From contig NC_045696.1 of the NCBI RefSeq assembly GCF_009834535.1, forward strand, positions 17,424,001 through 17,488,000: a DNA stretch of 64,000 nucleotides, written 5' to 3'. Origin of the DNA: Camelus ferus (lineage: Eukaryota). This document shows positions 7,921 through 56,956 of the stretch, piece by piece (position 1 is the first letter of the stretch; the number at the start of each line of letters is the position of its first letter). The notes under the pieces were generated by a model that was given only the letters and a program-made list of their open reading frames with translations, had not been told where the DNA came from and ran no database searches. The position numbers and the translations under genes were made by a program.

Positions 7921-8749
7921 CCCTCAGTCTCTGCTCCTTGGAGGTTCCCACGGTGGACGAGAAAGGTATGGAGAAATTGAAGCACTAACTACCCCTTCAG
8001 CACTACAGCCAGAGGCATTGCAGACTATTCTATTGTTAGGCTTCCTCACAGTATTTGTGACCACAATTTTCCATGCTGCATAAATTTAAAAATCAATACT
8101 ATAAGTTTGAAAGTCAATATTCTAAGGCAGAGAAGGTAAAATGGCATGGAAAATCAAGATGCAAACTGCAGACAAGGTGTTTTGGTTTATTATTATTTTT
8201 TTTGTCTTGTACAGTGTTTTTAATATTGCCAATTTAGACACAAAGAGGTTGCATTCTCAGCTTCTTAAACAAAAGAAAAGAAAGAAAAGAAAGAAATATC
8301 TGGCCATACATGTGTTGCATTCTCCTAATGCAATAACTAGCTGAATCAAAGCACCCACTGCCCACATTAGAAAGAATTTGCATTCTGACTCCCCCTCCTC
8401 CCATAAGCATTGCTATCACTTAAAACTCTTTGTGGCCTGCCAGCCTTACTTATTTTTGTTATTTATAAAGTTCCAGTGTACAGTTGGATTTGGTAATTGC
8501 TAGGTTATTATCTTTTAAATGAATTGTGAATCAGCAAGTAAAATATACTGCATCTAAAATTTGGGAATGAGAACAAGGTTGATAATTGAGAATCGTTTTC
8601 TTTTTTCTTTTTCTTTTGCAGTGGATAAAAAAAAAACTAGATATAAACTTAAGTACTTAAGCAAAATCTTAATAACCAAATTATAATTTGAGCTGCCATT
8701 CTTCTAGGGTTATGGAAGATTAATCTCACTCAAGTTGGGTTCCCTTTCT

Positions 8750-9199
8750 ATTATTTATTTAATTGAAATATAGTCAGTTTACAATGTTGTGTCAATTTCT
8801 GCTGTACGCAACATGTTTCAGTCATACATGTACATACATATATTCTTTTTCATTATAGGTTTCTAAAACATATTGAATATAGTTCCCTGTGATATACAAT
8901 AAAACTTGTTGTTAATCTATTTTATATATAGTAGTTAGCACCTGCAAATGTCGAGTTCCCCAACTTACCCTTCTAACCGCCTTCCCCCCACCATTAACCA
9001 TAAATTTGTTTCTATGTCTGAGTCTGTTTCTGTTTTGTAAATAAGTTCATTTGCACCTTTTTTTTGTTTGTCTGATTCACATATGAGTGATATCATATGG
9101 TATTTTTCATTCTCTTTCTGGCTTACTTCACTTAGAATGACGATCTGTACATTCATCCATGTTGTTGCAAATAGCATTATTTTATTCTTTTTATGGCCA
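8750..9199 (-). mobile_element. 5'-truncated lineage-specific L1 3' end with 13-bp TSD
   Basis: L1 3'UTR and ORF2 tail (minus-strand ORF FATTWMNVQIVILSEVSQKENEKYHMISLIC); TSD GGGTTCCCTTTCT at 8737-8749 and 9200-9212. Confidence 0.92.
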
Positions 9200-14281: not shown

Positions 14282-14782
14282 TTTTTTTCTCAGTTTTTAT
14301 TTGAAGTATAGTCAGTTTACAATGTTGTGTCAGTTTCCGGTGTACAGCATAATGTTTCAGTCATACATATACATATATATATATACATACATATATACAT
14401 ATACATACATATATTCCTTCTTATAGTCTTTTTTATTATAGATTACTAACAGTTATTGAATATAGTTCTCTGTGCTATACAGTAGAAACTTGTTTATCTA
14501 TTTTATTTATAGTAGTTAGTATCTGGAGATTTTTAACTCCCAACTTATCCTTTCTTATCCCTCTTCTCCCCTGGTAACCATGAGTTTCTTCTCTGTATTT
14601 GGGAGTCTGTTTCCTTGTAAATAAGTTAATTTGTGTCTTTTTTTTTTTTAATATTTCATATATAAGCGATACCATATGGTATTTCTCTTTTTCTTTATGG
14701 CTTATTTCACTTATAATGACAATCTCCATGTTCATCCATTGTTGCTGCAAATGGCATTATTTTATTATTTTTATTTTTATGG
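14282..14782 (-). mobile_element. 5'-truncated lineage-specific L1 3' end
   Basis: Same family as 8750-9199; minus ORF WMNMEIVIISEISHKEKEKYHMVSLI = ORF2 tail; internal (TA/TACA) microsatellite. Confidence 0.9.
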
Positions 14783-17729: not shown

Positions 17730-20700
17730 AAAGATTTTTCAGCAGAAACTCTGCAGGCAATAAGGGAGTGGCACAATATATTTAAAGTGATAAAAGGGAA
17801 AAACCTACAACCAGGAACACTCTACTCATCAAGGCTCTTGTTAAAATTTGATGGAGAAATCAAAAGCTTCACAGATAAGCAGAAGCTAAAAGAATTCATC
17901 ACCACCAAACTAGCTTTACAACAACCGTTAAAGGAACTTCTCTAGGTAGCAAAGAAAAGGCCACAACTAGAAATAAGGAAATTACAAAATGGGAAAACTC
18001 ATCAGTAAAGGCAAACATATAGTAAAGGTAGAAAATCACCTACACACAAACTAATAGGGAAGTTGAAAGACAAAGGTAGTAAAATCACCTGTGTCTACAA
18101 TAAGCAGTTAAAGGATACACAAAACAATTAGATGTAAAATATGATATCAAAACCAGCAATCATGAGAGGAGGAGGGTACGAATGCACAGTATCTAAAATG
18201 AACTTGAAATTAAGAGATCAGCAACTTGAAACAGTCATGTATGTATATAGACTTCTATACCAAAACCTCATGGTAACCTCAAACCAAAAATATATAATAA
18301 ATATATACACTAAAACAGAAGAGGAATCCAAAGGTAACTCTATAGTCATCAAACCACAAGAGAACAAAAAGAAGAAAGAGAGAGGAAAAAACAGAGGCCC
18401 ACAAAAATAAATCCAGAACAATTAACAAGATGGCAATAAGAACATATGTAGTAATAATTACCTTAAATGTAAAATAAAGACTGTTACAAGAGACAAAGAA
18501 GGACGCTACATAATGCTCAAAGGATCAATCCAAGAATAAGAGGTAACAATTGTAAATATGTATGCACCCAACATAGGAGCACCTTATATATAAGGCAACT
18601 GTTAACAGACATAAAAGGAGAAATTGGCAGTAACACAGTAATAGTGCAGGACCTTAACACCCCACTTACATCAAAGGACAGATCAATTAGACAGAAAATC
18701 AATAAGGAAATACAGGCCTTAAATGACATATTAGACCAGATGAATTTAATTGATACTTACACAGCATTCCATCCAAAAGCAGCAAAATGCACATCCTTCT
18801 TAAGTACACATGGAAAATTCTTCAGAATAGACTACATGCTGGCCCACTAAGTAAGCCTCAATAAATTTAAGAAAATTGTATTCATATCATGTGGTTGGAA
18901 AATCCTATCTTTTCCAACCACAGTCCAGTGAGATTTGAAATCAACTACAAGGAAAACACTGCAAAAACTGCACAAACATGCAGAGGCTATATAATATGCA
19001 AATGGATCACTGAAGAAATCAAAGAGGAATCAAAAAATACTTAGAGACAAATGAAAATGAAAACACGGTGATCCAAAACCTCTGGGACATAGCAAAGGCA
19101 GTTCTAAGCGGGAAGTTTATAATAATATAAGCTTACCTCAGGAAATAAGAAAAATCTCAAATAATCAACTTTACCTTACACCTAAAGCAACTGAGAAAGA
19201 AGAACAAACAAAATCCAAAATTAGTAGAAGGAAAGAAATTATAAATATTAGAGAAAAGATAAATGAAATAAAGACTAAAAAACAATAGAAAATATCAATG
19301 AGACTAAAAGCTGGTCCTTTGGAAAGATACAAAAAAAATTGATAAACTTTTAGTCAGACTCATAAAAAAAAAGAGAGGGCTCAAATTAAATAAAATTAGT
19401 AATGTAAAAGAGAAGTTAAAACTGACACCACAGGAATACAAGCGCTCTTAAGAGGCTACTATGAGCAACTGTACACCAACAAGGAGGACAACCTAGAAGA
19501 AACAGACAGATTCTTAGAAAAGTACAATTTGCCAAGGATGAACCAGGAAGAAATAGACAATATGAATAGACCAATTAGTAGTACTGAAATTGAGTCAGTA
19601 ATTTAAAAACTCTTAACAAACAAAAGTCCAGGGCTAGAAGACTTCACATGCAAATTCTACCAAACATTTAAAGCTGTTAACGCCTATCCTTCTGAAACTA
19701 TTCCAAAACATTACAGAGGAAGGAACACTTCCTAACTCACTCTATGAGGCCACCATTACCCTGATACAAAATAAGACAAAGATATTACAAAAGAGAAAAT
19801 CATAGGCCACTATCACTTACGAATATAGGTACAAAAATCCTTTACAAAATACTAGCAAATGGACATGCATTAAAAGGATCATACACTATAATGAAGTGGG
19901 ATTTATCGCAGGAGTGTGAGGATTTTTAATATCTGCAAATCAGTGGATGTGACATACCACATTAACAAACTGAAGAATAAAAACCATATGGTCATCTCAA
20001 TAGATGCAGAAAAAGCTTTTGATAAAATTAAACATCCATTTATGATAAAAATTCTCCAGAAGGTGGGCATAGAGGGAACATACTTCAACATAACGAAGGC
20101 CATATATGACAAACCCACAACTAACATCATACTTAATGGAGAAAAGCTGAAAGCATTTCCTCTAAGATCAGGAATAAGACAAGGATTCCCACTCTCACCA
20201 CTTTTATTCAATGTTGTTTTGGAAGTCCTAGCCAAAGAAATCAGAGAAGAAAAAGAAATAGAAGGAATCCAATTTGGAAAAGAAGTAAAACTGTCATTGT
20301 TTTCAGATGACCATGATACTATACATAGAAAATCCTAAAGACACCACCAGAAAACTACCAGAACTCATCAATGAATTTGATGAAGTTGCAGGATACAAAA
20401 TTAATGTATAGAAATCAGTTGTATTTCTATGCAGTAACAATGAAATATCAGAAAAATAAATTAAGGAAATAATCCCATTTACCATCACACCAAAAAGAGT
20501 AAAATACCTAGGGATAAATCTACCTAAGGAGGCAAAGGACCTGTACTCTGAAAACTATAAGACTAATGAAAGAAATTAAAAACAACACAAACAGATGGAA
20601 AGATATACTGTGTTATTGAATTGGAAGACTCAATATTGTTAAAATGGCCATGCTATCCAAGGCAATATACAGATGCGATCCTTATCAAGTTATCAGTAAC

Positions 20701-21001
20701 AGTTTTCACAAAACTGGAATGAAAAATGTTAATATTTTTATGTAAACACAAAATATCCTGAATAGCCAAAACAATCTTTAGAAAGAAGAATGGAGCTGGG
20801 GGAATCAAGCTCCCTGGCTTCAGACTGTACTACAAAGCTACAGTAATCAGAACAGGGTGGTACTGGCACAAAAGCAGACACATAGATCAAGGGAACAGGA
20901 TTGAAAGTCCAGAAATAAGCACACATACTTATGGTCAGTTAATCTGTGACAAAGGAGGCAAGATTATACAATGGAGAAAAGGCAGTCTCTTCAATAAGTG
21001 G
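17730..21001 (+). mobile_element. Disrupted L1: ORF1 C-terminus, spacer, ORF2 endonuclease and reverse transcriptase; lacks 5' and 3' ends
   Basis: ORF1 DFSAETLQA-like start; ORF2 ATG near 18430 (ITLNV) followed by an internal deletion near 18472; [34 protein letters not shown] motifs; many stops and frameshifts. Confidence 0.95.
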
Positions 21002-21190
21002 ATTTCTTTTATTTCTCTTCTTGTCTGATTGCTATAACTAGGGCTTCCAGTATTGTGTTAATAATGTGGTGAGAGTGGTCATCCTTGCTTTGTTCCAGGT
21101 TTTAGAGGGAATGCTTTCAAACTTTCACCACTGAGTATGATGTTAGCTGTGGGCTTGTCCTATATGACTTTTATTATATTGAGGTATTTT
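21002..21190 (-). mobile_element. Inverted L1 RT fragment from a different L1 copy
   Basis: Reverse complement aligns to about 20075-20265 with many substitutions (roughly 75-80% by eye). Confidence 0.85.
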
Positions 21191-39471: not shown

Positions 39472-39852
39472 TTCTATGTCTGTGAGTCTATTTCTGTTTT
39501 GTATTTATGCTTTTTTTTTTTTTTAGATTCCACATATGAGCAATCTCATATGGTATTTTTCTTTCTCTTTCTGGCTTACTTCACTTAGAATGACATTCTT
39601 GTGGTTGCCAAGGGGGCGGGGGGTGGGAAGGGATAGACTGGGATTTCAAAACTGTAGAATAGATAAACAAGATTATACTGTATAGCACAGGGAAATATAT
39701 ACAAGATCTTATGGTAGCTCTCAGAGAAAAAAATATGACAATGAATATATATATATGTTCATGTATAACTGAAAAATTGTGCTCTACACTGGAATTTGAC
39801 ACAACATTGTAAAATGATTATAAATCAATAAAAAAATGTTAAAAAAAAACCC
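39472..39852 (+). mobile_element. Young 5'-inverted (twin-primed) L1 insertion with polyA and TSD
   Basis: 39472 to about 39597 is L1 3' sequence on the - strand, about 39598-39849 is L1 3'UTR plus polyA on the + strand; TSD ACACATAAGTG at 39461-39471 and 39853-39863. Confidence 0.9.
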
Positions 39853-40632
39853 ACACATAAGTGAATAGATAAAGAGACCATTTACTCTCTGTTGTCATTT
39901 TGCTTACAAATATACAAATGTTTGTTTAAATCTTTCAGCAGAGCATGGCTAAACATTCTAAATATGTGTCACCTTATCGTTTCTACTTCATCACTTAATT
40001 GGTAAGTCCAGCCACACTAGCAACTCGCAAGAAATTTCTGTCTTTGAAAAGTCATAGGAAGGAAAAGTAATGTAACTGAACTCCTTTTAATTACCTCTGC
40101 AGTTTCCCTCCACCTTTTCCTCCTCTAGACAAGCATACTATACAGAATAGAAATTAGGCTTCTACAGTCAGAAAAAGAGCAGTTTAAACTTATAAGCATC
40201 AAACTTACTGTTACATAGGCCAGACTTTTAGTCTGGATTTTTATGTAACTTTTTATGTACCTTCCTGGCCTTGGTTTTCTTCAGTGCTATTAAAAATTCA
40301 TACCTCCTTAGTGAAGCAAAGTAAGTAAAGCACTTGGCACAGAGCCTGGTACAAACTAAATTTTTAATTTAAAAAAAGGTGAAAATTGAAAAATGAAGTT
40401 ATACAAATTAGCACAATGATGGACATTGTATTTATGTAGAGCATATTATATATCTTCCGATTTTGAATAAAAGAAAATGTATAATTGCAATTGGAATATT
40501 TTAAAAGTAATGCCTGGGTAAAGGTTCAGAAACCAGAGTACCAGTCAATCAGTAAGATACACACTTTATTTTCAGAGAAGGTGTTGGCTCCACAATAATT
40601 CAGTAACAAGCTCTTTCTTTTGGGTAAGGATA

Positions 40633-44440: not shown

Positions 44441-47400
44441 TCTTAAAAAATTTTATTATTTCCAATTTTATTTAATTTTCAAATTTCTGTACCTTAAATT
44501 ATGAGACTTCTGACAGATTTTTAAAGCACTGATCAAAAGTTCAAACAGTAGTTTTGCTGTTGCAGCTTTTTGTTTGTACTTAGCCATCCTCAGATATACT
44601 ATTAAAACTTCCAAATCAATGCTCCAAAATATATAAAAGTCCTAATTAGTTCCTCAAACATTTAGTCAGCTTCTAACTATCCAAGTGTAAATTTTGAATA
44701 TAGAATTCTCAATAACATACTCAATAACACATTCATGATTCAGCTTGTTTCTGAATTGTTAATTTAAAGTTAGTTGTTGGTATTTGTTAATAAAAGTATT
44801 TACTATAGCTATTAAAACATAGTCATTACTTAATTACAGCTTTTTTAGCTATTAAAGACAGAGAATAATGAAATTTCCAAAGTGAAAACTTGAGTGATGT
44901 CTGTATTGATTGGATTTAAGATGTGAGGAAAGGGAAGAAATCCAGAAAAACAGTAAGCATAAATGGAAGATATCACTGAGATAAATAAAGGGGGGTGGAA
45001 TTAGAAGTAAAGAAAATGAGGTCAATATAAAACAAAATGAATTTATGGTTCTTGGGGCACTTCTAAGTGGAAATGTTGAAGATCTATATAGTTGAAGAGA
45101 TACTTGATGTTTATTGGTTATTATTGCTACATTTTACTATCTTCTATCTTTGACTTTCAAAATTTGGAAAATCTTGGTACCTTCTTGACTCATTTTCCAG
45201 CTAGACACTTAAGATCATTTTATCTCTTTTTATACATTTACAACAGAATGAGAAGCAAATTGTGTTTTTGTACCATGTTCTTCAATATTGGATCCATTTT
45301 AAGAGCTGCTAGAAAATACTCATTTTTCTGAATTAATTAAATTCATAGTGCAGTATCAGTATAGCTCATGGGTTAAAGTGTTTCAAATTTTGAAATGATC
45401 CAAAGAAATGCTTAAGCTTTAACCTAAGAGAAACATTTTTCCTTTGAGTGAAATGATTAGGTGGAATATAAGCAAGATCTTAATGCAACTGATATGCAAC
45501 ATTTAATTGTTAAACTAAATTGTTTTTGGTGCTTTAATATGAGGAATTTTTAATTAACTTCACTTTTCAATTTGAAATCAAATATAGATAATTTGAAATA
45601 AAAATGTTTTAACTACATGGAATTTAAAAAGGAAGTTGATCAAAAATTATATTAAACCAAAAAGATAGGAAAAAAGAAAGAAGGAAGGAAGCTTATAATT
45701 TTAAGTGTTCACATTACACCTGTCCCAAACAATCAAAGAAAAATCTGTGAACCAAAATTAGTCTCTCAAGAAATTTTACTAAATTTCCACTAAAATTTGC
45801 TTTTTTTAGCTTAGTTATCAAAATGAAGCAACACACTCAAAACTAAGAACATGGAAATATGTATATATTAAATTTCAAATATAAATAGTAATGAGGAAAA
45901 CAAATATATTTTACAGATAAACAATGTTAATAGGTGAATTTTAAATATTCATTAATTAGATTATTTAATATGTAAGTGTTCATTAAACAATAAAATACCA
46001 GCAGAGACATATTTTTCCATATGCGTTTATTTTACCTGAAGAACAGTGAGTGGTTTCAGCACTAAATCCACATAGATAAGACATTGTATTAAATTCAGTG
46101 TCATTCCAACATAGCACATAAAGAAAATTTTTGTTTTCACTTGAGAATGCCAAACAATTAACTAATGTGTATATGTGAATGTATGTATGTGTACATATAC
46201 TCATATGTACAAATATGTGTACACATATAAACACATGTATAAATGTCTTTACATATGCATTTATCTATCTAGAACTGTATCTTAGATAAGACTGGTAACA
46301 GAATGTAGAGGTCATGAAATAGGACTTTAAAGGCTTTGGTATTGAGTCCCATTTACTTGTCAGCATTGCAGGTGGCACTGGTTTGCTTTGCATTCATTTG
46401 TGAAGATAGGAACTAAACCCATCACATGTTGTTCATATATATGTCAACTAGGCTAAAGAAAGGTTTTATTTTGGATGTGCAGTTGCCAAAGAATTCTGTG
46501 TTTTCTACTAGTTCTAGTTACTTCCTGGACATAGTGATATTTTTGTGACTTTCCTAAACTAGAGACTACCTGAAACACATACTGAAAACCCCTTTAGGAC
46601 CCCACTGAGCTACAACACTGAGTTTGGAGGGTAATTGCACATCCCAGCTCTTCACAATTCTCATGGTTAAGATCTAAACAAGATCCTCTTTGTTGCTTTG
46701 GCAGGAGGCAAGGAAGAAAAATCATTGTGAAATAAGCCCACAGAAATCTCCATAACAAAAGTCTACTCCCCAGAGGAAGATTGACTGGATCCTTATCCAA
46801 CCAGGGGAATGGCATCTCTCATATTCCAGTCTCCTCCATCAGTATATCTTACTTGAATTTGTATCTTTGAGTGTATATTCTTTAGCCATACATAGTATGC
46901 TTCTGCCTTATTTCAGATTAATACACAAATACTATCCTCCTGACCTGGTCTTATACAAATTTTATCATTGTACTTTTGAGATGTATACATATTTTAATAT
47001 AACTCTCATTAGCCTCTGTAATTATATTGTAGGAATTATGTATCTGTTCTATTGAGAGATATTAGAATATCTCTCTAGCAATGAAAAAATGTAAATTAAA
47101 CCAATAATGAGAACTCATTCACATATTTTATAAAATGCTAAAAAATATAGCAGTTTAAAATGAAAAAAAAAATCTAGCAAGATCAAGTTTTAGGTGTTGG
47201 ATTATGAAAAAACAGGGAGTGAGTTTCTGGCCATGACTTACTTTTGTGCACAGAAAGGAATTTGGCCTAACAATGCTTTGACCCACTAGGATTGTTTAAG
47301 GGAAAGATGGGGCCTACTGTGGACAAGCTTCAGGCTGCACCCAGTCCCTTCCACCTCCTCTACCACCTATATAAGTGAGATCAATTTCTATTTTAAAAGC

Positions 47401-47716
47401 AAAGTTAGGGAGAAATGTTTTCTAGAACATAGCTGGCCACCCCTCCCCCAGCCTAACTGCCCATCCAGGATGTCTGCCACTTGTTTACCTTAGAGATGGA
47501 ACACTTTGCAGGATTCTGAGGGGTGGTCAGTTAAGGCTTACAGGACACTCACTGGTCCTCAGAGGCAGAGCTGTGGAGCCCAACACAACCATGGAGGGCC
47601 AGCTGTTCGCCACTGGATCCTCTTTCCAGCTGATTCTGGAACACCTATGGGGTGCTCTGCTGGTGATTGCTGAAAGCTTGAGGCACATCCCAGGTCTCCC
47701 TGCATTGTTCTGAGAG

Positions 47717-48712
47717 ATGCTGGTATGCACTGTGATGGTGGTTGTGATAGTAAAGAGACTAAACACTTTAAGATGTATGAAGTTGCTAGCCAAAAGGTGT
47801 TCTGCCCACAGTGAAGTCTATGGAAAAGGTGGTGAGAATACTGAACCAATGACACAAGGTGAAGAAGCCCTCAGGCCACCTGGGTTGGAGGCCAGTCCTC
47901 CCATGTTACAAACCTTGTGCCTGTTGGCAATGAATACAAACCTAAGTAAGTCATCCCATCCTACCACTGTGGACTTTCTGGAAAAGGCACAGAAGACCCA
48001 GCCTCCTCAACTTTCCCAGGTGACCAGTGGAAAACCCATCTTAAAAGCATCAGAGAAAAATGGAGAACAACTTCAGAAGAAAATAATGAATAATGTGAAT
48101 GAAAATACTCATTTTCCAGAAAGTCCAGAACTACTTGCTCAAGAAATAGCCAGATGGAAGCAGAGTGTCCAGGAAATGGAGGAGGAGAAAGAAAGGCTGG
48201 TGCAGTCAAACACACTGATGGAGCAAGTCCTGAATGATAATGTCCGCCAACTAACATCAATGGCTGAATGCCTTCTGAAGGCCATCCCGTTGCCTAACTT
48301 TCTTGGAGATCACTTGCTATATGGGAACCTGAAAGGCCAGTGGAAGAGGGAAGCAGAAAATGGTGATCAGTCCATTCATCAGTCAGAAGCTGATCTGCAG
48401 GGTGTCATTGATGATGTTGATTTCAACGTATCCCTTCAGAGTCCTGAACAGGGCCATCAGGAAATATCCCAAAGATTGCGGGAAGAAAAGCAAATGAATG
48501 AAGAGCTTGCAGGGCAAATATCAAGTCTCCAAATGGAAGAAGGGTCTCTGCACTGTGAGAATTCACAGCTGGAAAGGGAGACTCAGCAGCTGAAGCTGAA
48601 TCTTCAAATTCTGCCTGAAGTACATGAAGATTATTTAATGCAACTTCAGAAAAAAATTGAGGAGGAAGTGCGCTGCTTAGAATTGGAGAAAAAACTTCCC
48701 AGTCTGTGCTAA
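47717..48712 (+). CDS. 331-aa truncated cTAGE-like ORF (N-terminal hydrophobic anchor plus coiled coils); translation unproven
   Basis: Longest ORF in window; MLVCTVMVVVIVKR anchor then coiled-coil region resembling cTAGE5 CC1/CC2. Confidence 0.5.
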   Translation: MLVCTVMVVVIVKRLNTLRCMKLLAKRCSAHSEVYGKGGENTEPMTQGEEALRPPGLEASPPMLQTLCLLAMNTNLSKSSHPTTVDFLEKAQKTQPPQLSQVTSGKPILKASEKNGEQLQKKIMNNVNENTHFPESPELLAQEIARWKQSVQEMEEEKERLVQSNTLMEQVLNDNVRQLTSMAECLLKAIPLPNFLGDHLLYGNLKGQWKREAENGDQSIHQSEADLQGVIDDVDFNVSLQSPEQGHQEISQRLREEKQMNEELAGQISSLQMEEGSLHCENSQLERETQQLKLNLQILPEVHEDYLMQLQKKIEEEVRCLELEKKLPSLC

Positions 48713-49478
48713 AATGTGAAGTCCACATATCAGAATCACAGCTTCTATAGGAAGATGGCAGAAGATGTGGGCAAACAGTTAAAGGGCAACACTTCCTACC
48801 ACTGAAAGGAGATCCTCTTCCATGAGAAAAGAGCTCAAGAATGCTGGATGTTGGCTGTATCCACTGAGAGAAAGCTCAAGAAGCTAAAGAAAAGAAAATG
48901 ACCACAGAAGGCAAATGCTGGCCAAGGTTGATTCGAAGTTCCAGCCTTTCCCAAAGAGCCCCTGTGTCCCTGCTGCTCCACCTGCAGCCCACAGAGGCCT
49001 TGAAGTGTCAGGAGATCACCTTTGCCATGCTCCCTAGGGTGGGGGATGTTTATGCCATGAGATCTCAGGGATCTGGGGTCTTCTGCATGTTTGACTCATC
49101 TTCCCTAGAATTCAAGTCCTGAACACCCAGAACCAGGGATAAACACCTGTATGTATTTCTGTTAAATTAATTTTGACTAACCTCTTTAGCTAAGCTACAA
49201 TTGGTAAATTGATGTCACAGTTACTCTTACCAGTATAGAATTACAACTTATTGTAGTAATATTTAAAAATTGATTTTCAGAGATATATGGTTTTCCCAAA
49301 AGATTTTTTGGAATTAAGTACTGTAAGTATTGTATCTTGATTTAAATTAAACACCACTCATGACTTAGATCACCCTCTAAGTTTGACATGAGTAAGATAA
49401 ATTTGAAATGATAAAAATAATTATCTGTAAGCTATGGCTAATATTGTAAATCTATGTAATTAACCTAATACTCATCTG

Positions 49479-49517
49479 AATAAATTTTGGCTGGTTTTTA
49501 AAAAAACCCAAAAAAAG
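49479..49517 (+). terminator. PolyA signal and retroposed polyA-tail remnant of copy 1
   Basis: AATAAA 49479-49484 followed about 15 nt later by aaaaaaacccaaaaaaa. Confidence 0.65.
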
Positions 49518-50389
49518 TTAAACAAGACGAGACCTCATTCAAATTATATTTTTAATAGTTTAGTTCTAAACTTGTAGTTTAGTGCTAAATTCGTAAAATT
49601 AGTTTTGTAGTTCATAGATTAGAAACCAGAATTTGGAAGTATCTATTTCTTGTTTTATAATTGTTTCTTATCCTGTGTAGTTTTGCTTAAGGGTCCATTT
49701 TTTCCTTAACAATTCTAAAGTTTATCAGTCAAAATGAAAAAAGTTTTGATGGCAAAACACACATATAAACACACATACACACACAAACCACAAGGCAGAT
49801 ACTAATCCCTCTTAGTGGCTTTGTGAATACCTGAAAAATGTAAAAAGGGAGTTACAAATTTAAGAAATTTTTTAAATAAAAAAGTAAACTAAAAAATATG
49901 TGTGTATTAATTATATTTAGACAATAGATTTTAAATCATGTGCACATAAAAGTGGCATTTCCTGATCATTCAGACCAAATTCCAACCAAAAACTTCATAC
50001 AAAAGGTGCAGACAAAAGAGACTATGAAGATGGTGGTTCAGAGCTGTGGCAAGGATGAGGGAAGGACCAAGGATGTGGGGCTCCAGGTGCTAGCACTTAA
50101 AAGACTGTTTCAACTTTTGGGCCTGGAGAGAGGGGAGGGAAGTGATGTCACCTAAGCGCAGTGAGGGACTGTCAAGGGAACAGGAAAACTGCCCCCACCC
50201 TCTGTTCTCCTGTCCTCTCATTTCCTGCAGTAGTAATGGGCAGTCACCCAGGGGGCCTGGGTAGTGCAGATGGGGGAGTCAGCCTTGGACTAGAGCAGGC
50301 CAAGAGAAAAAAAGTAATTGGAGAATGACTAGCACACTTGACTCTCTTTGATCCAACGTATATGTGTGTATTTTATTGTCATCATTCAC

Positions 50390-51080
50390 ATCCATGTATT
50401 TAATAAATGTCTGTGGCGTTTCTATGATGTCTGCAGCAATGTTGTAGATGTTTGGTAGGAAGCAATGAAAACATCTCCTGATCTGATGAGACACGTGGGC
50501 CTCAGAGACAATCCAGTGAGGGGCAAGGTCAGATAATAAAGATCAATGAAACAAATGATGATATCTACTCTGAGGACAATTTCAATAGGATGATGGATGA
50601 TTAGGGTGACAGGGTAACACTCAGGAGGTGACATTTATGTGATATCAAACCACAAGAAGAGTATCCTGGGAGGCCAGGGGACATAAAATTATAAGCAGAG
50701 AGAAGAGGAAGAATAAATTGCCAGAGAACTGGGTTTCTGGGGCAGAGAAAGCTGGGCTAAGGTGAAGGGAGAGCAGGGGAGGTGGCCAGGGAGCAGGGAC
50801 CATTGCAAAGGCTTGTCTTTAGTGCAGCTTAGGGACACCAGACTTTAGACCTGGAGGCTGAAGGTTGATAGCTGCGGACATGGTGTGATGTATGTTCTAC
50901 GGAGATCTGCGTGGCTGTGGAGAGGGTGGAATGTGGGGAGGGGGAGTAAGTGTGGGATTTTGGTGAGGTTCCTCACGGGTCTGCACTGGGTTGGTTGTCA
51001 CAGAAATCCAGCAGAAAGACAGATGGGGCTGAGTTTGAGCAGTTGTGGGATCAGAAAAGATGAATGAAGAATGACTCTTA
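50390..51080 (-). mobile_element. Degraded L2 fragment within the duplicated segment
   Basis: Purine-rich L2 antisense motifs; paralogous to about 34910-35520. Confidence 0.6.
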
Positions 51081-52364
51081 GCACTGTTCTAATAACTCTG
51101 TATGGCATTGGGTACTAAGTAAATCATAGTAAATTTAGTGCAGGAGAACCCTAAGAAAAGTCAACAAGGCATAGATGCATTACACCCAGTGAAATCCTGA
51201 TTTCTGAGGAAAGTGTGTGGAGCAGCCATGTCCATTTGGACTCCAGGTAGTGTCTGCCATACTTGTTGAAGGCTCTGGTGATCAGGTGGTCTCACCTCTC
51301 AGGTGCTCCCACAATGGGGAGTCCAAGGGCAGGGAGAGGGGCTTATTGCAGGATGAAGATTCCCAAGTGTGATGCATTTACTATCTGAGTTGAGCCCATT
51401 TAATGCTACTTTTGGAGATACCAAGATGATACCAAGTTTACCACAAGCAAACCACAAGTCTCGCTTCCTGGATCACTGTCCCTCTAGTGACTGTCCCTCC
51501 TACTGGGCCCCACTTCATCATGCTTCTTCCTGTTCATTTCCTGCCAGCAGTCAGAAGAGACTCTTTATTCCATAAGATAATCAAGGCTAGAATGAAGCCA
51601 GACACTGATATGTGTGAGGTGAAGGTGCAATCAAACCCTGACCTAGACATCATGTCTCCTAGCTCTGGTTCACAAAGAACAAGGGTGAGAATCATGCCAA
51701 TGTGTTCTGGACAGTTGTTGGGCTGTGGGCTTCTTATTGATAGCTCACCTTTTCATTCATAAAACTGCTCATGTTATAACAATAAATTAAATGGTCACAA
51801 AATTAATGCCTCACTTGAGTTCAAACTTTTCCAGAGAGAGCTATGACATTTTGAGAAACATGTATATCCTAATGAGAAAGTTAGACAACATGGTTTAATT
51901 GAAACTTAAATTCAGCCACGGATGGTCAAAGAAACACCACAGTTTTGCCAACTTAACCAATATAAAAACATCGTATTTTTGTTAAGATGATCCCTCATTC
52001 ATGAACTCCAAATATAAGCCATGGTAGTTTTGAAAACGTCCCCAAAAAACCAAGTGACACGTGGGATAAACATAACACCAAGTATGCTTGGGTTAAAGTC
52101 AAGGCCCCTCCAGTGTACTGTGGAAGCAAAAAAGGATGTTTTTGAAAATCTTTCATAAGAGCCCATCTAGTGCAAATGGTCTTTATGTGATGCAATGGTC
52201 ACTTGAATTACAAACAAATAATTTGTCTGTTTAATTCAATTTCAAAGGTATTTGGAATGAAGTAAGACACTGAGTCTCAAGATATAGTGGAAAGATAAGA
52301 ATTTGCTGTGCCCAAAAAATACTCCTAGAAAGACAAGACAACTAGGAACACAATGCTGTAGTAA

Positions 52365-52492
52365 ATACCTCCTCTCTGGGACCACTCCCTGGGAGGCTCT
52401 GATTCAGTTGCTCTTAGGTGGGTCCTGAATGTCTGTATTTTTCCAAGTTCTGCTCATGATTCTGATGCACAGCAAAGATGGAACCACTACAG
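52365..52492. mobile_element. MER5-like hAT DNA transposon fragment
   Basis: ctctgattcagt...aggtgggtcctgaatgtctgtattttt...gattctgatgcacagcaaag...gaaccact. Confidence 0.7.
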
Positions 52493-52589
52493 TGGGGCAT
52501 CAACACGCCACCTATGTTGAAGGTACAGATGCAGCAATCTGGTTTCCTTTCCTTTCACAGTTATTGTTTCCATGGTTTACAATGTTTTT

Positions 52590-52843
52590 AATTATTAAAC
52601 TTTGCTTCTAGAGCTCTTCTGAGTACAAAGCAAAACTGAAAAGTACAGCGAGTTTCCATATACCCCTTCACATTCAAAACTTCCCAAGCAACATCTCCTA
52701 CCAGAGTGGTGCATTTGTTACAACTGATGGACCTACGTTGACATATTACCATTGTTTACATTAAAGTTCACTCTCCGTGTTGGACAGTCTATGATTTTGA
52801 GAAAAGTATAACCACATGTATCTATCAATATAATATCATACAA
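52590..52843 (-). mobile_element. L1MC-type 3' end, truncated at the ERV junction
   Basis: aaagtacagcgagtttccatatacccc, accagagtggtgcatttgttacaactgatggacctacgttgaca, ends atcataca. Confidence 0.8.
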
Positions 52844-54478
52844 GACTTTATGGTGTCCTAAGTTTCCCAAAATACAAAGCTAACTGCCAACTGGGAGGAT
52901 TTCTCTAGCTAGTAGGTTATTGCCAAAACTAAATTCCAAATTTGTCCCTTATGTCTAATCCTCTGTGTGTTTTACTCAACAATAACAACCCAGACCCAAT
53001 TCCATGAGAACTGGAGGACATAGCCTGGAGGATAGTTTGATCAACCCAGCTGCCCTTCGGTATCCCAACTGTCAGATTTCTTATTCCTTTATTGTACATG
53101 AAAAGGAAAGAAAGGAGTACCCATGGGGTGCTCCCCCCAAAACACAGGGATCACCATTGATCCATAGGGTATTACAGCTGGCAAATGGGCCCTGTGTCAT
53201 GGGGATAGACCCCTGTCTTAGAGCCATTATGGCCATTATGGCCACTGCCTTTTTGGTTACGGCACTAAGAAAATCATTGTGGGATCTCCCTTTAGCCATT
53301 TTTTACCTCATTTACCAGAAGCTCTGCTGAAATCTCATCACACTCCACATTTCACAGCCCACTACCTCGCCTCCTGTGAAGTCCTTTAGTTAACTACTCC
53401 TCAAATAACTCTTTTATGTTGTAATAACTATAATCTGGTTCCTTTTATCTACTGTGTTGCTGACTACTTCTCTCTGATGGCCACCTCCTGAATCCTTGTG
53501 ATGATCTACAGGAAATTCAGTTGGGTAGCACTGATGTCTCATGGTTCACTGATGGTTCTTACTTAAACGTTACAATGGCAAGTATCATGCTGGGTATGCG
53601 AATGCAACTCCTTTTGATGTTGTTGAGGCAGCATGTTTAACCTATGGCTACTTCAGCCCAATACACTGAATTATATGCTCTTCTATGAGATTGTACGTTA
53701 ACCGAGGACAAAACTGCCAACATTTATGCTGATAGTAGATGTACTTTCGGAGTAGCTCATTTTTTGGAATACTGTGGAAGTAGCATGGCTTCCTTAATTC
53801 TATTGGAAATAAAACTAAAAGTTGCCCAATGTTTAGAAATTATTGGATGAAATAATTTTACCTGCCACTTTAACCATTATTAAGAATCCAGGGCATTCTG
53901 AACTTGAATTTCTGGAAGCTCAAGGAAATCATTTTGCTGATACTTCTGCAAGGAATGCTGCCTTTAAAGGGATGGACAGCAGCCAAACCTGTGTCAAAGG
54001 GATATTTCCCCAAATGATAATTCAGAAAAACTGGCTAGAAAAGCCCAAAAACTGGCCTTAGAAAAGGAAAAACAAGAATGGAAATTCAAACATTTTTGGC
54101 TTGATAAAAAGAGGCAGCTCTGGTTTGGACCAAATGACAAACCAGTGTTATGGAGACTAAAATTCCCGCTCCTCACTACCAATCATGCATTAGACCATAG
54201 GTCTACTGACAAAATTACAGTCTTCATGAATCAGTATTGGTGGGGAAACATTAACATGACCACAAAAAGCACCTACCTCACTTGTTCCATTATCCAAGTT
54301 CAATGTAGAGGAGCCTGTTCATACTGCTTCTGGACATTTTAAACTCCCTAATAGACCATTCAAGTTCTGGCAAATGAATGTCATACAACTTCCTCCTTCT
54401 AACTGGTATAAATATGCTTTTCTCATGGTCTGTATGTTTTCACACTGAACTGAAGCCTTCCCTTGCAGATAAGCTACA
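52844..54478 (+). mobile_element. Class I ERV pol fragment (RT thumb/connection, RNase H, integrase N-terminus), no LTRs
   Basis: LVGYC-like RT thumb, WFTDGSY (53542), IYADSR, PGHS...GNHFAD RNase H motifs, integrase zinc-finger remnants and WQMNVIQLP...TEAFPCR; many stops. Confidence 0.9.
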
Positions 54479-55418
54479 ATTTTCTCTGAAGTTGCATTAA
54501 ATAATCTTCATGTACTTCAGGCAGAATTTGAAGATTCAGCTTCAGCTGCTGAGTCTCCCTTTCCAGCTGTGAATTCTCACAGTGCAGAGACCCTTCTTCC
54601 ATTTGGAGACTTGATATTTGCCCTGCAAGCTCTTCATTCATTTGCTTTTCTTCCCGCAATCTTTGGGATATTTCCTGATGGCCCTGTTCAGGACTCTGAA
54701 GGGATACGTTGAAATCAACATCATCAATGACACCCTGCAGATCAGCTTCTGACTGATGAATGGACTGATCACCATTTTCTGCTTCCCTCTTCCACTGGCC
54801 TTTCAGGTTCCCATATAGCAAGTGATCTCCAAGAAAGTTAGGCAACGGGATGGCCTTCAGAAGGCATTCAGCCATTGATGTTAGTTGGCGGACATTATCA
54901 TTCAGGACTTGCTCCATCAGTGTGTTTGACTGCACCAGCCTTTCTTTCTCCTCCTCCATTTCCTGGACACTCTGCTTCCATCTGGCTATTTCTTGAGCAA
55001 GTAGTTCTGGACTTTCTGGAAAATGAGTATTTTCATTCACATTATTCATTATTTTCTTCTGAAGTTGTTCTCCATTTTTCTCTGATGCTTTTAAGATGGG
55101 TTTTCCACTGGTCACCTGGGAAAGTTGAGGAGGCTGGGTCTTCTGTGCCTTTTCCAGAAAGTCCACAGTGGTAGGATGGGATGACTTACTTAGGTTTGTA
55201 TTCATTGCCAACAGGCACAAGGTTTGTAACATGGGAGGACTGGCCTCCAACCCAGGTGGCCTGAGGGCTTCTTCACCTTGTGTCATTGGTTCAGTATTCT
55301 CACCACCTTTTCCATAGACTTCACTGTGGGCAGAACACCTTTTGGCTAGCAACTTCATACATCTTAAAGTGTTTAGTCTCTTTACTATCACAACCACCAT
55401 CACAGTGCATACCAGCAT
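54474..55418 (-). CDS. 314-aa truncated cTAGE-like ORF; translation unproven
   Basis: Identical to the copy 1 ORF for the first 311 aa, ends MQLQRKL then TAG at the ERV junction. Confidence 0.45.
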   Translation of the reverse strand: MLVCTVMVVVIVKRLNTLRCMKLLAKRCSAHSEVYGKGGENTEPMTQGEEALRPPGLEASPPMLQTLCLLAMNTNLSKSSHPTTVDFLEKAQKTQPPQLSQVTSGKPILKASEKNGEQLQKKIMNNVNENTHFPESPELLAQEIARWKQSVQEMEEEKERLVQSNTLMEQVLNDNVRQLTSMAECLLKAIPLPNFLGDHLLYGNLKGQWKREAENGDQSIHQSEADLQGVIDDVDFNVSLQSPEQGHQEISQRLREEKQMNEELAGQISSLQMEEGSLHCENSQLERETQQLKLNLQILPEVHEDYLMQLQRKL

Positions 55419-55544
55419 CTCTCAGAACAATGCAGGGAGACCTGGGATGTGCCTCAAGCTTTCAGCAATCACCAGCAGAGCACCCCATAGGTGTTCCAGA
55501 ATCAGCTGGAAAGAGGATCCAGTGGTGAACAGCTGGCCCTCCAT
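54474..55544 (-). pseudogene. cTAGE5/MIA2-family retrocopy, copy 2 (3'-truncated)
   Basis: ATG at 55544, same codon-41 TGA as copy 1, near-identical to copy 1 up to 54485, then fused to ERV integrase. Confidence 0.9.
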
Positions 55545-56956
55545 GGTTGTGTTGGGCTCCACAGCTCTGCATCTGTGGACCAGTGTCCTGTGAGCCTTAA
55601 TTGACCACCAGTCAGAACTCTGTAGAGTGTTCCATCTCTAAGGTAAACAAGTGGCAGACATCCTGGATGGGCAGTTAGGCTGGGGGAGGGGTGGCCAGCT
55701 ATGTTCTAGAAAACATTTCTCCCTAACTTTGCTTTTAAAATAGAAAGTTATCTCACTTACATAGGTGGTGGTGGAGATAGAAAGGTCTGTTAGCAGCTTG
55801 GATCTTGGCCACTCTAGGCCATGCCTGGCCCTATAGCAAACCTATGGGTTTAAGGCAGGAATAAGCTACACTTTGTTCTGTGCTCAAGAGCAAGTCAGGA
55901 CAGAGTGGTGGGGCCCTTCCCATTCTCCTTATTTAACTTATTTTTCTTTTTCCTTCTCCAGGATGTCTAATGATGCCCCCAAATTCTAAAGATCTGCCTT
56001 TTATAAGGCTCCCTCTTTCCTTGATTTTGATCATTATGAGCAGGCACAGGTCCAGGCTGAAGTTTAAGATATTTAATGTCTAAAAATGTACAATGTGGTG
56101 GCTGGCACAAAAAGTGTGCTTAATAAATGACAGCTAACTTCATGTAATAAAACTACCAAAAAAATCTAGAAGGAATTTTGGGTTAGTATCTATATCAGTA
56201 TGATATTGGAAGGAATAAAAACAGTAAACAACAACATAGAGAAAAAAATGCTTGATTTGACCACATAAAAATTCAGAGAATATAGGACATATCAAAAAAT
56301 TGTATACAAAATTTAAATGAAAATACTATCTATCTATCCACCTTTATCTCTAGTTACCATACAAAATATATTTAGAATAAAATGAAAAATGCATTTAAAT
56401 TCAAAATTTTAAAGTTCAAAAAATCAGAAATGTCACTGTACAGAGAAAAAATTAAGCAAAAATAAAAATTTTTACTCATGAAACTACTAATATTTTGAAA
56501 GATATTTTTACTAATTTTTGGCTGTGTTCTTCTAAACTGAGCATTCTAGTCCTGCTGGTGTGAGAGTTAACTGGTATAAATGCTCTGGAATACCTCTGCT
56601 GAAACATACCAAGACTCTTAAAAGGTCTTAACTTTGACATATTTGAGCATAGGATACATCCTCTGTTATAAGAGTACATCCCAAGTACATAATTAGTATC
56701 TGGACCAAATATGCTGCCTCTTTGCTGAAAATATTTATTATAGAATAGATTGTAATAGAAGATATCTGGAAACATCACTCAAAGTTTGAATACAAAGAAA
56801 GATTAATTAAACTCAGTTCAATTCATGATGATACCTGGGTATGTGAAACTAATAAGAGGATTTAGGGAGCGGGCATATGACTTGATGGTTTATTGTTAGT
56901 GAAACTTTTGTTTTGGGAGTTGGATTAAAGGGTGTTTATTACTATATATGTATTGG

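What the first reader, a model, noticed from the sequence alone, without database searches (positions are those of the whole stretch)
47226..55905. Old inverted cTAGE retrogene pair kept near-identical by arm-to-arm gene conversion (mini-palindrome)
Seen: identity between the two copies is a stepwise mosaic. Outer flank 47231-47380 vs 55751-55900 has 103/150 matches (about 69%, gapless, hand count). Block 47385-47505 vs 55626-55746 is 121/121. Patch 47506-47564 vs 55571-55625 has 10 substitutions plus a 4-nt indel. Arm 47565-48650 vs 54485-55570 is 1085/1086, and the sole mismatch is a CpG transition. A single recent duplication cannot give 69% and 100% blocks side by side. Inference: an ancient duplication with recent or ongoing conversion tracts. 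Established: arm-to-arm conversion maintains large sex-chromosome palindromes. Here it appears in a compact 8.7-kb form around a retrogene.
Basis: partly seen in the sequence, partly recalled or inferred. Interest (0 to 1): 0.85.

Follow-up and report, generated by a model that had tools for sequence, protein, structure and literature searches.

The report
Gene-converted inverted cTAGE-like gene pair
In this camel genome two mirror-image copies of a damaged cTAGE-like gene are 99.9% identical over 1.2 kb but only 69-82% alike in adjoining patches, likely because gene conversion has repeatedly copied one old duplicate onto the other, a real example of a well-known process.

Summary
The copies are convergent, intronless, cTAGE5/MIA2-related genes of a Laurasiatherian family; the genus is Camelus. 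Both copies carry their own derived changes in the patch, so the pair is old. Assembly collapse could hide a few percent of difference but cannot make the step from 69-82% to 99.9%. Non-allelic gene conversion between old inverted duplicates is the best explanation (0.8).
Corrections: the arms are 1.3 kb, and unchecked scan notes place the locus on an autosome, so it resembles SIGLEC11/16 more than a sex-chromosome palindrome. The right copy is cut at a decayed retroviral pol fragment. Both copies share a stop at codon 41.
Extra: frame-breaking lesions are rarer in the paired part (1 of 353 codons against 4 of 148, p=0.03, post hoc), so a shortened protein may have stayed under selection.
No reads or orthologous DNA could be examined. 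The scan holds no look-alike of this locus elsewhere, but 55 notes in at least 15 genomes match the same search words.

The parts
47226..47384 (+). Left outer block, putative promoter, about 69% identical to 55747-55904; TATA-like TATATAA at 47368-47374
   Evidence: (47 of 151 differ); promoter role inferred from position and motif only
47385..47505 (+). Identical block of 121 bp (putative start of the 5' UTR), partner 55626-55746
47506..47564 (+). Diverged patch in the putative 5' UTR: 10 substitutions in 55 columns and a 4-nt tandem repeat present only in the left copy; partner 55571-55625
47565..48650 (+). Left arm, 1085 of 1086 identical to 54485-55570
47591..49094 (+). Left cTAGE-like gene copy, full length but damaged: family ATG 47591, stop 47711-47713 shared with the right copy, new ATG 47717, open frame of 331 codons to the stop at 48710-48712, further stops at 48803 and 49035, frameshift near 48887
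48656..49094 (+). Unpaired 3' coding part, present only in the left copy; holds 4 of the 5 frame-breaking lesions
48656..54479 (.). Spacer of 5824 bp without arm homology
52900..54479 (+). Decayed gammaretrovirus-like pol fragment that abuts the cut end of the right copy; RNase H matched at about 53503-53766 and 53828-53986; the outer limits are estimated by eye
   Evidence: MLV/XMRV RNase H, best E 8e-8; no Pfam hit in 6 of 6 frames tried; integrase-like end recognised from recalled motifs
54474..55544 (-). Right cTAGE-like gene copy, 3'-truncated: family ATG 55544, shared stop 55424-55422, new ATG 55418, open frame of 314 codons ending at the junction (stop 54476-54474)
54485..55570 (-). Right arm
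55571..55625 (-). Right version of the diverged patch
55626..55746 (-). Right copy of the identical 121-bp block
55747..55904 (-). Right outer block, putative promoter; TATGTAA at the place of the left TATA-like motif

Best explanation
Two inverted, convergent copies of an intronless cTAGE5/MIA2-related gene lie 5.8 kb apart and are identical at 1206 of 1207 bases in two blocks but only 69-82% alike beside them, most likely because an old DNA duplication has been homogenised by repeated non-allelic gene conversion. Shown: the mosaic, the family, the damage to both copies, and copy-specific derived changes on both sides in the patch. Inferred history: (1) a promoter-plus-gene unit was duplicated and inverted tens of millions of years ago, probably near the base of Cetartiodactyla; (2) the close inverted copies kept pairing during repair or meiosis, within a chromatid or between sisters or homologues, so new mutations were erased or copied across, which would explain the stop at codon 41 and the new ATG being shared; (3) the promoter edge and a 59-bp patch around a 4-nt insertion escaped and diverged; (4) a deletion joined the right copy to a decayed retroviral pol fragment, and the left 3' end, now without a partner, decayed alone. 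The last exchange was probably within about a million years. The direction of conversion is unresolved.
For: Step mosaic with p=1e-13 and 5e-47. Corrected distances 0.40 (outer), 0.21 (patch), 0.0008 (blocks). In the 3' half of the patch, polarised with N-terminal peptides of P0002, P0069 and P0003, the left copy has 2 derived changes (the 4-nt repeat, H>Y) and the right has 3 (V>I, L>H, G>C). At the inner end the right copy reads QRKL like 2 of 6 homologues shown (RKL) while the left reads QKKI with one codon fewer, so the right end is not a plain copy of the left. The sole arm mismatch is a CpG transition. P0001 differs from both arms at 4 of 224 residues while the arms differ at 0 of 672 bases there. 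Closest relatives are lineages C (Ovis record P0022 and 4 unnamed rows) and E (Cervus and Rangifer records and 2 unnamed rows); ruminant-type C and E rows are only 46-57% identical. The arm groups with C (94/97; 29 rows, 250 columns) and the unpaired left tail with E (90/92; 24 rows, 120 columns). Copies 18% or 31% apart would share about 2 and 0.01 of 1056 31-mers, too few to collapse.
Against: No reads and no orthologous DNA were examined, so neither the 99.9% figure nor species-wise clustering is shown. Patch and outer block do not differ significantly (p=0.08), so several age strata are not shown. The 121-bp block stays identical though cut off by an 18% diverged patch, and modelling on human duplicates finds that pairs usually escape conversion early (10.1101/135152, passages). 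C and E are not shown to be neighbours or inverted in any one genome; C has no sequence beyond residue 250, so the tail tree cannot compare C with E; camel+E is not rejected for residues 1-250 (p-AU 0.18), rare residues split 5 C-only, 5 E-only, 3 both among 46, and for residues 251-353 the camel row is unplaced. The near-identical hippo and reindeer pairs belong to another lineage (camel+D rejected, p-AU 0.002) and do not support this locus. The origin of P0001 is unnamed and the C. ferus models may not be independent of the window's assembly.
Confidence: 0.8

Rival explanations
1. One recent event, not long-term exchange: an old, diverged paralog was overwritten once by a long, discontinuous template switch or conversion from its neighbour, leaving the promoter edge and the 59-bp patch.
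For: One mismatch in 1207 bases fits a single event about 0.1-0.35 My ago. Patch and outer block are compatible with one age (p=0.08).
Against: It would need strand exchange between copies 18-31% apart; conversion depends on high similarity (10.1101/135152, passages). Two separate blocks are identical. The patch holds shared derived changes as well as copy-specific ones (A>V, G>R), and the 23 bases next to the 121-bp block are less diverged (3 of 23 vs 44 of 128, p=0.05), which suggests a retreating edge.
Confidence: 0.1
2. Partly an assembly effect: the arms are truly similar (say 95-99%) but were collapsed, gap-filled or polished into one version.
For: 1.1-kb near-identical repeats are prone to this; 1116 31-mers are shared; no read test was possible.
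Against: It cannot produce the step from 69-82%: copies that far apart share almost no 31-mers. The remaining mismatch is a CpG transition, and the window has no N. Even if true, old duplication plus homogenisation would still be needed.
Confidence: 0.07
3. Recent inverted duplication of the gene body that landed by chance beside an unrelated or repeat-derived look-alike promoter.
For: The 69% block is only 159 bp, and no repeat library could be searched here.
Against: The block is gapless and in register with the gene in both copies, has no third copy in the window, and the internal patch matches family 5' sequence in both copies with changes on both sides.
Confidence: 0.03

Closest known systems
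SIGLEC11 / SIGLEC16(P) in primates (PMC5701461, passages)
   Same: Inverted gene pair about 9 kb apart; a stretch of about 2 kb with upstream DNA and 5' exons is 97-99% identical within each species through repeated conversion, beside a less similar stretch; a non-functional copy takes part.
   Different: Head-to-head, multi-exon, with known paired-receptor function and a multi-species tree. Here the copies converge, are intronless, both are damaged, the less similar parts are far more diverged (69-82%), and no orthologous DNA was seen.
Non-allelic (interlocus) gene conversion between mammalian duplicates (10.1101/135152 and PMC10172114, passages)
   Same: Tracts of near-identity inside older divergence; escape once differences build up.
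   Different: Average human rate 2.5e-7 per base per generation and mean tract 250 bp. A steady-state reading here (c=2u/d, u assumed 1.2e-8) gives 3e-5, range 5e-6 to 1e-3, so this pair would be far above average or recently swept.
Large X and Y palindromes (PMC8327919, passages; 10.1101/800185, first half of the text)
   Same: Inverted arms above 99% identity around a spacer, holding a gene family; damage at the inner arm and spacer edge.
   Different: Arms there are 8-140 kb (human X) and 10-65 kb (mouse X); here 1.3 kb, limited to the gene, and probably autosomal. Testis expression is untested here.
cTAGE / MIA2-derived intronless genes (NCBI names 'cTAGE family member 15-like', 'MIA2-like'; primate CTAGE expansion as summarised in PMC4949931, passages)
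   Same: Homology to MIA2/cTAGE5 (E 8e-62); retroposition followed by DNA-level duplication is reported for the primate family.
   Different: The primate family is said to start in the Haplorhini ancestor; all named close relatives here are Laurasiatherian, about 500 residues and 36-63% identical to the camel frame, so this is likely a separate, little-studied set.

Membership tests
Non-allelic gene conversion / concerted evolution of a gene pair | Blocks of near-identity inside significantly older divergence | tested here: met
Non-allelic gene conversion / concerted evolution of a gene pair | Unconverted parts show independent change in both copies | tested here: met
   2 left-derived and 3 right-derived changes in the 3' half of the patch, polarised with three homologous peptides
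Non-allelic gene conversion / concerted evolution of a gene pair | Converted part clusters by species, flanks cluster by copy | tested here: inconclusive
   Proteins only: P0001, lineages C and E; no orthologous DNA
Non-allelic gene conversion / concerted evolution of a gene pair | Identity confirmed in raw reads | not testable with these tools
   one search listed no run; collapse bounded only by simulation
Large sex-chromosome palindrome | Arms of 8 kb or more | tested here: not met
   1.27-1.43 kb against 8-140 kb
Large sex-chromosome palindrome | Arm identity above 99% | tested here: met
   1206 of 1207 in the two blocks; 95.5% over the whole 1430 columns
Large sex-chromosome palindrome | Lies on X or Y | tested here: inconclusive
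   Unchecked scan notes place CCT8, PCNT, GSK3B, KPNA1 and LAMP3 on the same piece; that these are autosomal is recalled. Points against, not verified by me.
Large sex-chromosome palindrome | Testis-biased expression of the arm gene | not testable with these tools
   no RNA data obtained
cTAGE5/MIA2-derived retrogene | Homology to MIA2/cTAGE5 | tested here: met
   profile hit P0123, named MIA2 isoform X4, E 8e-62; NCBI names of relatives
cTAGE5/MIA2-derived retrogene | No introns | tested here: met
   intact 480-540-residue relatives align colinearly over 47591-49091; that the parent has many exons is recalled
cTAGE5/MIA2-derived retrogene | Poly(A) remnant at the 3' end | tested here: not met
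   no A run of 12 or more near 49100-50200; candidate signals at 49346 and 49479; loss is expected in an old copy
cTAGE5/MIA2-derived retrogene | Target-site duplications | not tested
   insertion ends unknown
Primate CTAGE family | Descent from the Haplorhini retroposition | not tested
   no named primate member was retrieved; named close relatives are all Laurasiatherian

The most novel reading that the evidence does not exclude
A broken copy redefined the gene: after the right copy was cut at the retroviral fragment, conversion plus selection kept only the paired part alive, so camels make, or made until recently, a shortened 314-331-residue cTAGE-like protein from a new ATG three bases after a shared stop, while the unpaired tail decayed. 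More widely, this Laurasiatherian family would sit as converting pairs at several loci (96-98% pairs in hippo, reindeer and Phyllostomus), giving a natural series in which the same kind of pair kept converting in some lineages and escaped in others.
Probability: 0.2. Interest if true: 0.55.

Novelty: new member of a known kind. Interest (0 to 1): 0.3.

Why it matters
The mechanism is textbook, and the gene has no known function, so a specialist would not be very surprised. The locus is still an unusually sharp small case: 99.9% and 69% side by side within 8.7 kb, an isolated 121-bp block that stayed identical behind an 18% diverged patch, and a built-in control, the unpaired 3' tail. With camelid and ruminant genomes it could test how short a block can keep converting, whether an indel seeds a divergence island, and whether pairing helps to keep a reading frame. 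It also points to an understudied Laurasiatherian cTAGE-like family with repeated near-identical pairs.

Tried and rejected
Whole genome: none is held for this window. Sequencing runs: one search of 47100-49300, DNA, library word PACBIO; none was listed, which is no evidence either way; no reads were laid. Mammalian DNA in metagenome contigs: two scans found no relative (594 and 104 pattern matches, none confirmed). Diverged 3' part of the right copy or a third copy in the window: none. Pfam: 4 weak matches below cut-off for the left frame, none for two spacer frames, none for 6 retroviral frames. No tRNA or Rfam match in the window. Solved structures: only a designed coiled-coil peptide for the family profile. 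Atlas search of the hippo protein gave TANGO1/MIA2-like cluster names and no usable structure match. Rejected: my first use of the hippo and Phyllostomus pairs as orthologous support; the hippo pair groups with reindeer and another C. ferus protein, not with this locus, and the bat pair groups with bats. Rejected: right copy as a recent retrocopy of the left (it keeps upstream DNA, lacks the 3' end and has no tail). Rejected as unshown: a direction of conversion, and GC-biased conversion (arm 45.9% GC vs unpaired coding part 47.8%). Faster protein decay in the unpaired tail was not seen (53.5% vs 53.5-54.5% identity to 10 relatives). A fold-back RNA across the 5.8-kb spacer was considered; no expression data bear on it. 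Literature: 10 searches; cTAGE + camel + X chromosome gave 0 papers, CTAGE + retrotransposition + gene family + mammals gave 3, none on this locus by listing; the library lacks most subscription papers, and no supplements were read.
Full report
Observation. A self-comparison of the window gives one dominant match, 47226-48655 against the minus strand of 54480-55904, 1430 columns at 95.5%. The 69% block scores 120 against at most 30 in 30 shuffles; DNA further out and the spacer score at shuffle level. Differences are 47 of 151 in the outer block, 10 of 55 plus a 4-nt indel in the patch, and 1 of 1207 in the two identical blocks; patch vs blocks p=1e-13, outer vs blocks p=5e-47, patch vs outer p=0.08.

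What the copies are. The left frame found 35 relatives among 1649 candidates; the named ones are from hippo, deer, reindeer, sheep, fox, horse, donkey and bats, called cTAGE-like or MIA2-like. A family profile hit an 806-residue protein at E 8e-62 that is named MIA2 isoform X4. Intact relatives of about 500 residues align colinearly on 47591-49091, so the gene is intronless; a retroposed origin is inferred, and no poly(A) remnant is left. A Camelus ferus model matches at 99%; its 166 first residues occur in both arms and its last six are encoded at 50665-50648 on the minus strand, so it is a model of the right copy, and P0066 equals the left frame. Whether that assembly is independent of the window I cannot tell. 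Unchecked scan notes place PCNT 17 Mb and CCT8 4.6 Mb before the window and GSK3B, KPNA1 and LAMP3 39-54 Mb after it; from recall these are human chromosome 21 and 3 genes, so the locus is probably autosomal.

Anatomy. The copies converge. Homology starts 365 bp upstream of the family ATG and includes a TATA-like motif, which points to a DNA-level duplication. Both copies have a stop at codon 41, where relatives mostly have W, followed after one codon by an ATG where most have I. The left frame then runs 331 codons and the right 314. The right copy ends at 54480 against a decayed pol fragment whose RNase H matches MLV and XMRV structures (best E 8e-8); its 3' part is nowhere in the window.

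The pair is old. In the 3' half of the patch, three homologous N-terminal peptides polarise the differences: the left copy has the 4-nt repeat and H>Y, the right has V>I, L>H and G>C, and both share A>V and G>R. Corrected distances are 0.40 (0.29-0.55) for the outer block and 0.21 (0.10-0.40) for the patch. At a recalled rate of 2.2e-9 per year that is 65-126 and 22-91 My, and 0.19 My (up to 1.05) for the identical blocks. At the rate used in PMC8605555 (2.5e-8 per 5-year generation; passages) my arithmetic gives about 40, 21 and 0.08 My. Dates are therefore rough by a factor of two or more; the contrast is not.

Relatives. In a tree of 29 rows chosen from 282 proteins held, first 250 residues, the camel arm groups with lineage C (94/97), which holds an Ovis record; grouping with lineage D (hippo pair, reindeer pair, another C. 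ferus protein) is rejected (p-AU 0.002), grouping with lineage E (Cervus, Rangifer) is not (0.18). The unpaired left tail groups with E (90/92; 24 rows), but C has no sequence there; for residues 251-353 the camel row is unplaced; of 46 rare camel residues in 1-250, 5 are shared with C only, 5 with E only, 3 with both. Ruminant-type C and E rows are 46-57% identical. The simplest reading, inferred and not shown, is that C and E are the two copies of this locus, which diverged in ruminants and stayed in exchange in camels. P0001, an unnamed close relative, differs from both arms at 4 of 224 residues where the arms have no difference in 672 bases.

Artefact. Copies 18% or 31% apart would share about 2 and 0.01 of 1056 31-mers, those 2% or 5% apart about 560 and 216. 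Collapse or polishing could therefore hide a few percent, but could not create the step. No read test was possible: the one run search listed nothing.

Mechanism. The best reading is repeated non-allelic conversion between close inverted copies, with escape of the promoter edge and of a patch around an indel, and loss of pairing for the left tail after the right copy was cut. A steady-state estimate, c=2u/d as in 10.1101/800185 (first half of the text) with an assumed u of 1.2e-8, gives 3e-5 per base per generation (5e-6 to 1e-3), above 2.2e-6 for mouse X palindromes and 2.5e-7 for average human duplicates (10.1101/135152, passages). One recent long event would give the same identity, and the data cannot exclude it. 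The survival of the isolated 121-bp block is the least expected feature and is not explained by any test here.

Reading frame. A scan note flagged that frame integrity follows the paired region. I count 1 lesion in 353 paired codons and 4 in 148 unpaired ones (p=0.03); the boundary was chosen after seeing the pattern, the counts are small, one lesion lies in the poorly conserved end, and a one-codon in-frame loss at the boundary was not counted. Neutral conversion alone should not lower the lesion rate (population-genetic reasoning, recalled), so selection on the paired part, now or in the past, is possible. Against it: identity to 10 relatives is the same inside and outside the arm, P0001 has four replacements, and nothing shows expression.

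Comparison. The closest case is SIGLEC11/SIGLEC16, inverted, about 9 kb apart, with a 2-kb stretch at 97-99% in each primate (PMC5701461, passages). It is not a large sex-chromosome palindrome by arm size (8-140 kb in PMC8327919, passages). Other papers seen: PMC10172114 (passages), PMC4949931 (passages), PMC12447643 (abstract and outline); the rest only as search listings. Ten searches found no paper on this locus by listing; no supplements were read. The scan has no look-alike of this DNA elsewhere and 55 notes in at least 15 genomes under the words inverted pair, conversion, palindrome.

Verdict. Real, correctly counted, and most likely gene conversion between old inverted duplicates. A new member of a known kind; interest 0.3.

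Noticed in passing
Hippo and reindeer pairs share a lineage but are 61% alike between species, a possible second locus under long concerted evolution. Orientation and flanks unseen.
   Followed up: partly
window 47711-47719 and 55416-55424: A new ATG (I in most relatives) stands one codon after the shared stop, and both frames then end within 17 codons of each other (331 and 314 residues).
   Followed up: partly
window 47470-47519 and 55612-55661: Short upstream frames in the putative 5' UTR; one starts in the identical block (ATG 47496) and ends at the same TGA inside the diverged patch in both copies.
   Followed up: no
window 47540-47553; proteins P0052, P0093: Lineage E rows read the 5' UTR shifted by one base at about the place where the left copy has its 4-nt repeat; this may mean a shared old insertion. 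Not tested.
   Followed up: partly
proteins P0016, P0020, P0022, P0040, P0227: Lineage C rows end at about the same codon near residue 250, where the camel arms read on.
   Followed up: partly
window 52900-54479: Decayed gammaretrovirus-like pol fragment with no LTR seen by eye at either side; cut in the integrase-like part at the right copy's end.
   Followed up: partly
window 20077-20283 and 20986-21190: An L1-like stretch repeated in inverted orientation about 700 bp apart at 76%; L1 identity is by recall.
   Followed up: no
window 39500-39864, with 8726-9194 and 14282-14774: L1 3'-end-like copies; the one at 39500-39864 joins two pieces in opposite orientation, as in 5'-inverted L1 insertions; the camelid L1 label is recalled.
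   Followed up: no
window 1-64000: 34% GC, CpG-poor, with only 3 stop-free frames of 150 codons or more, all in the two arms: a gene-poor region.
   Followed up: no
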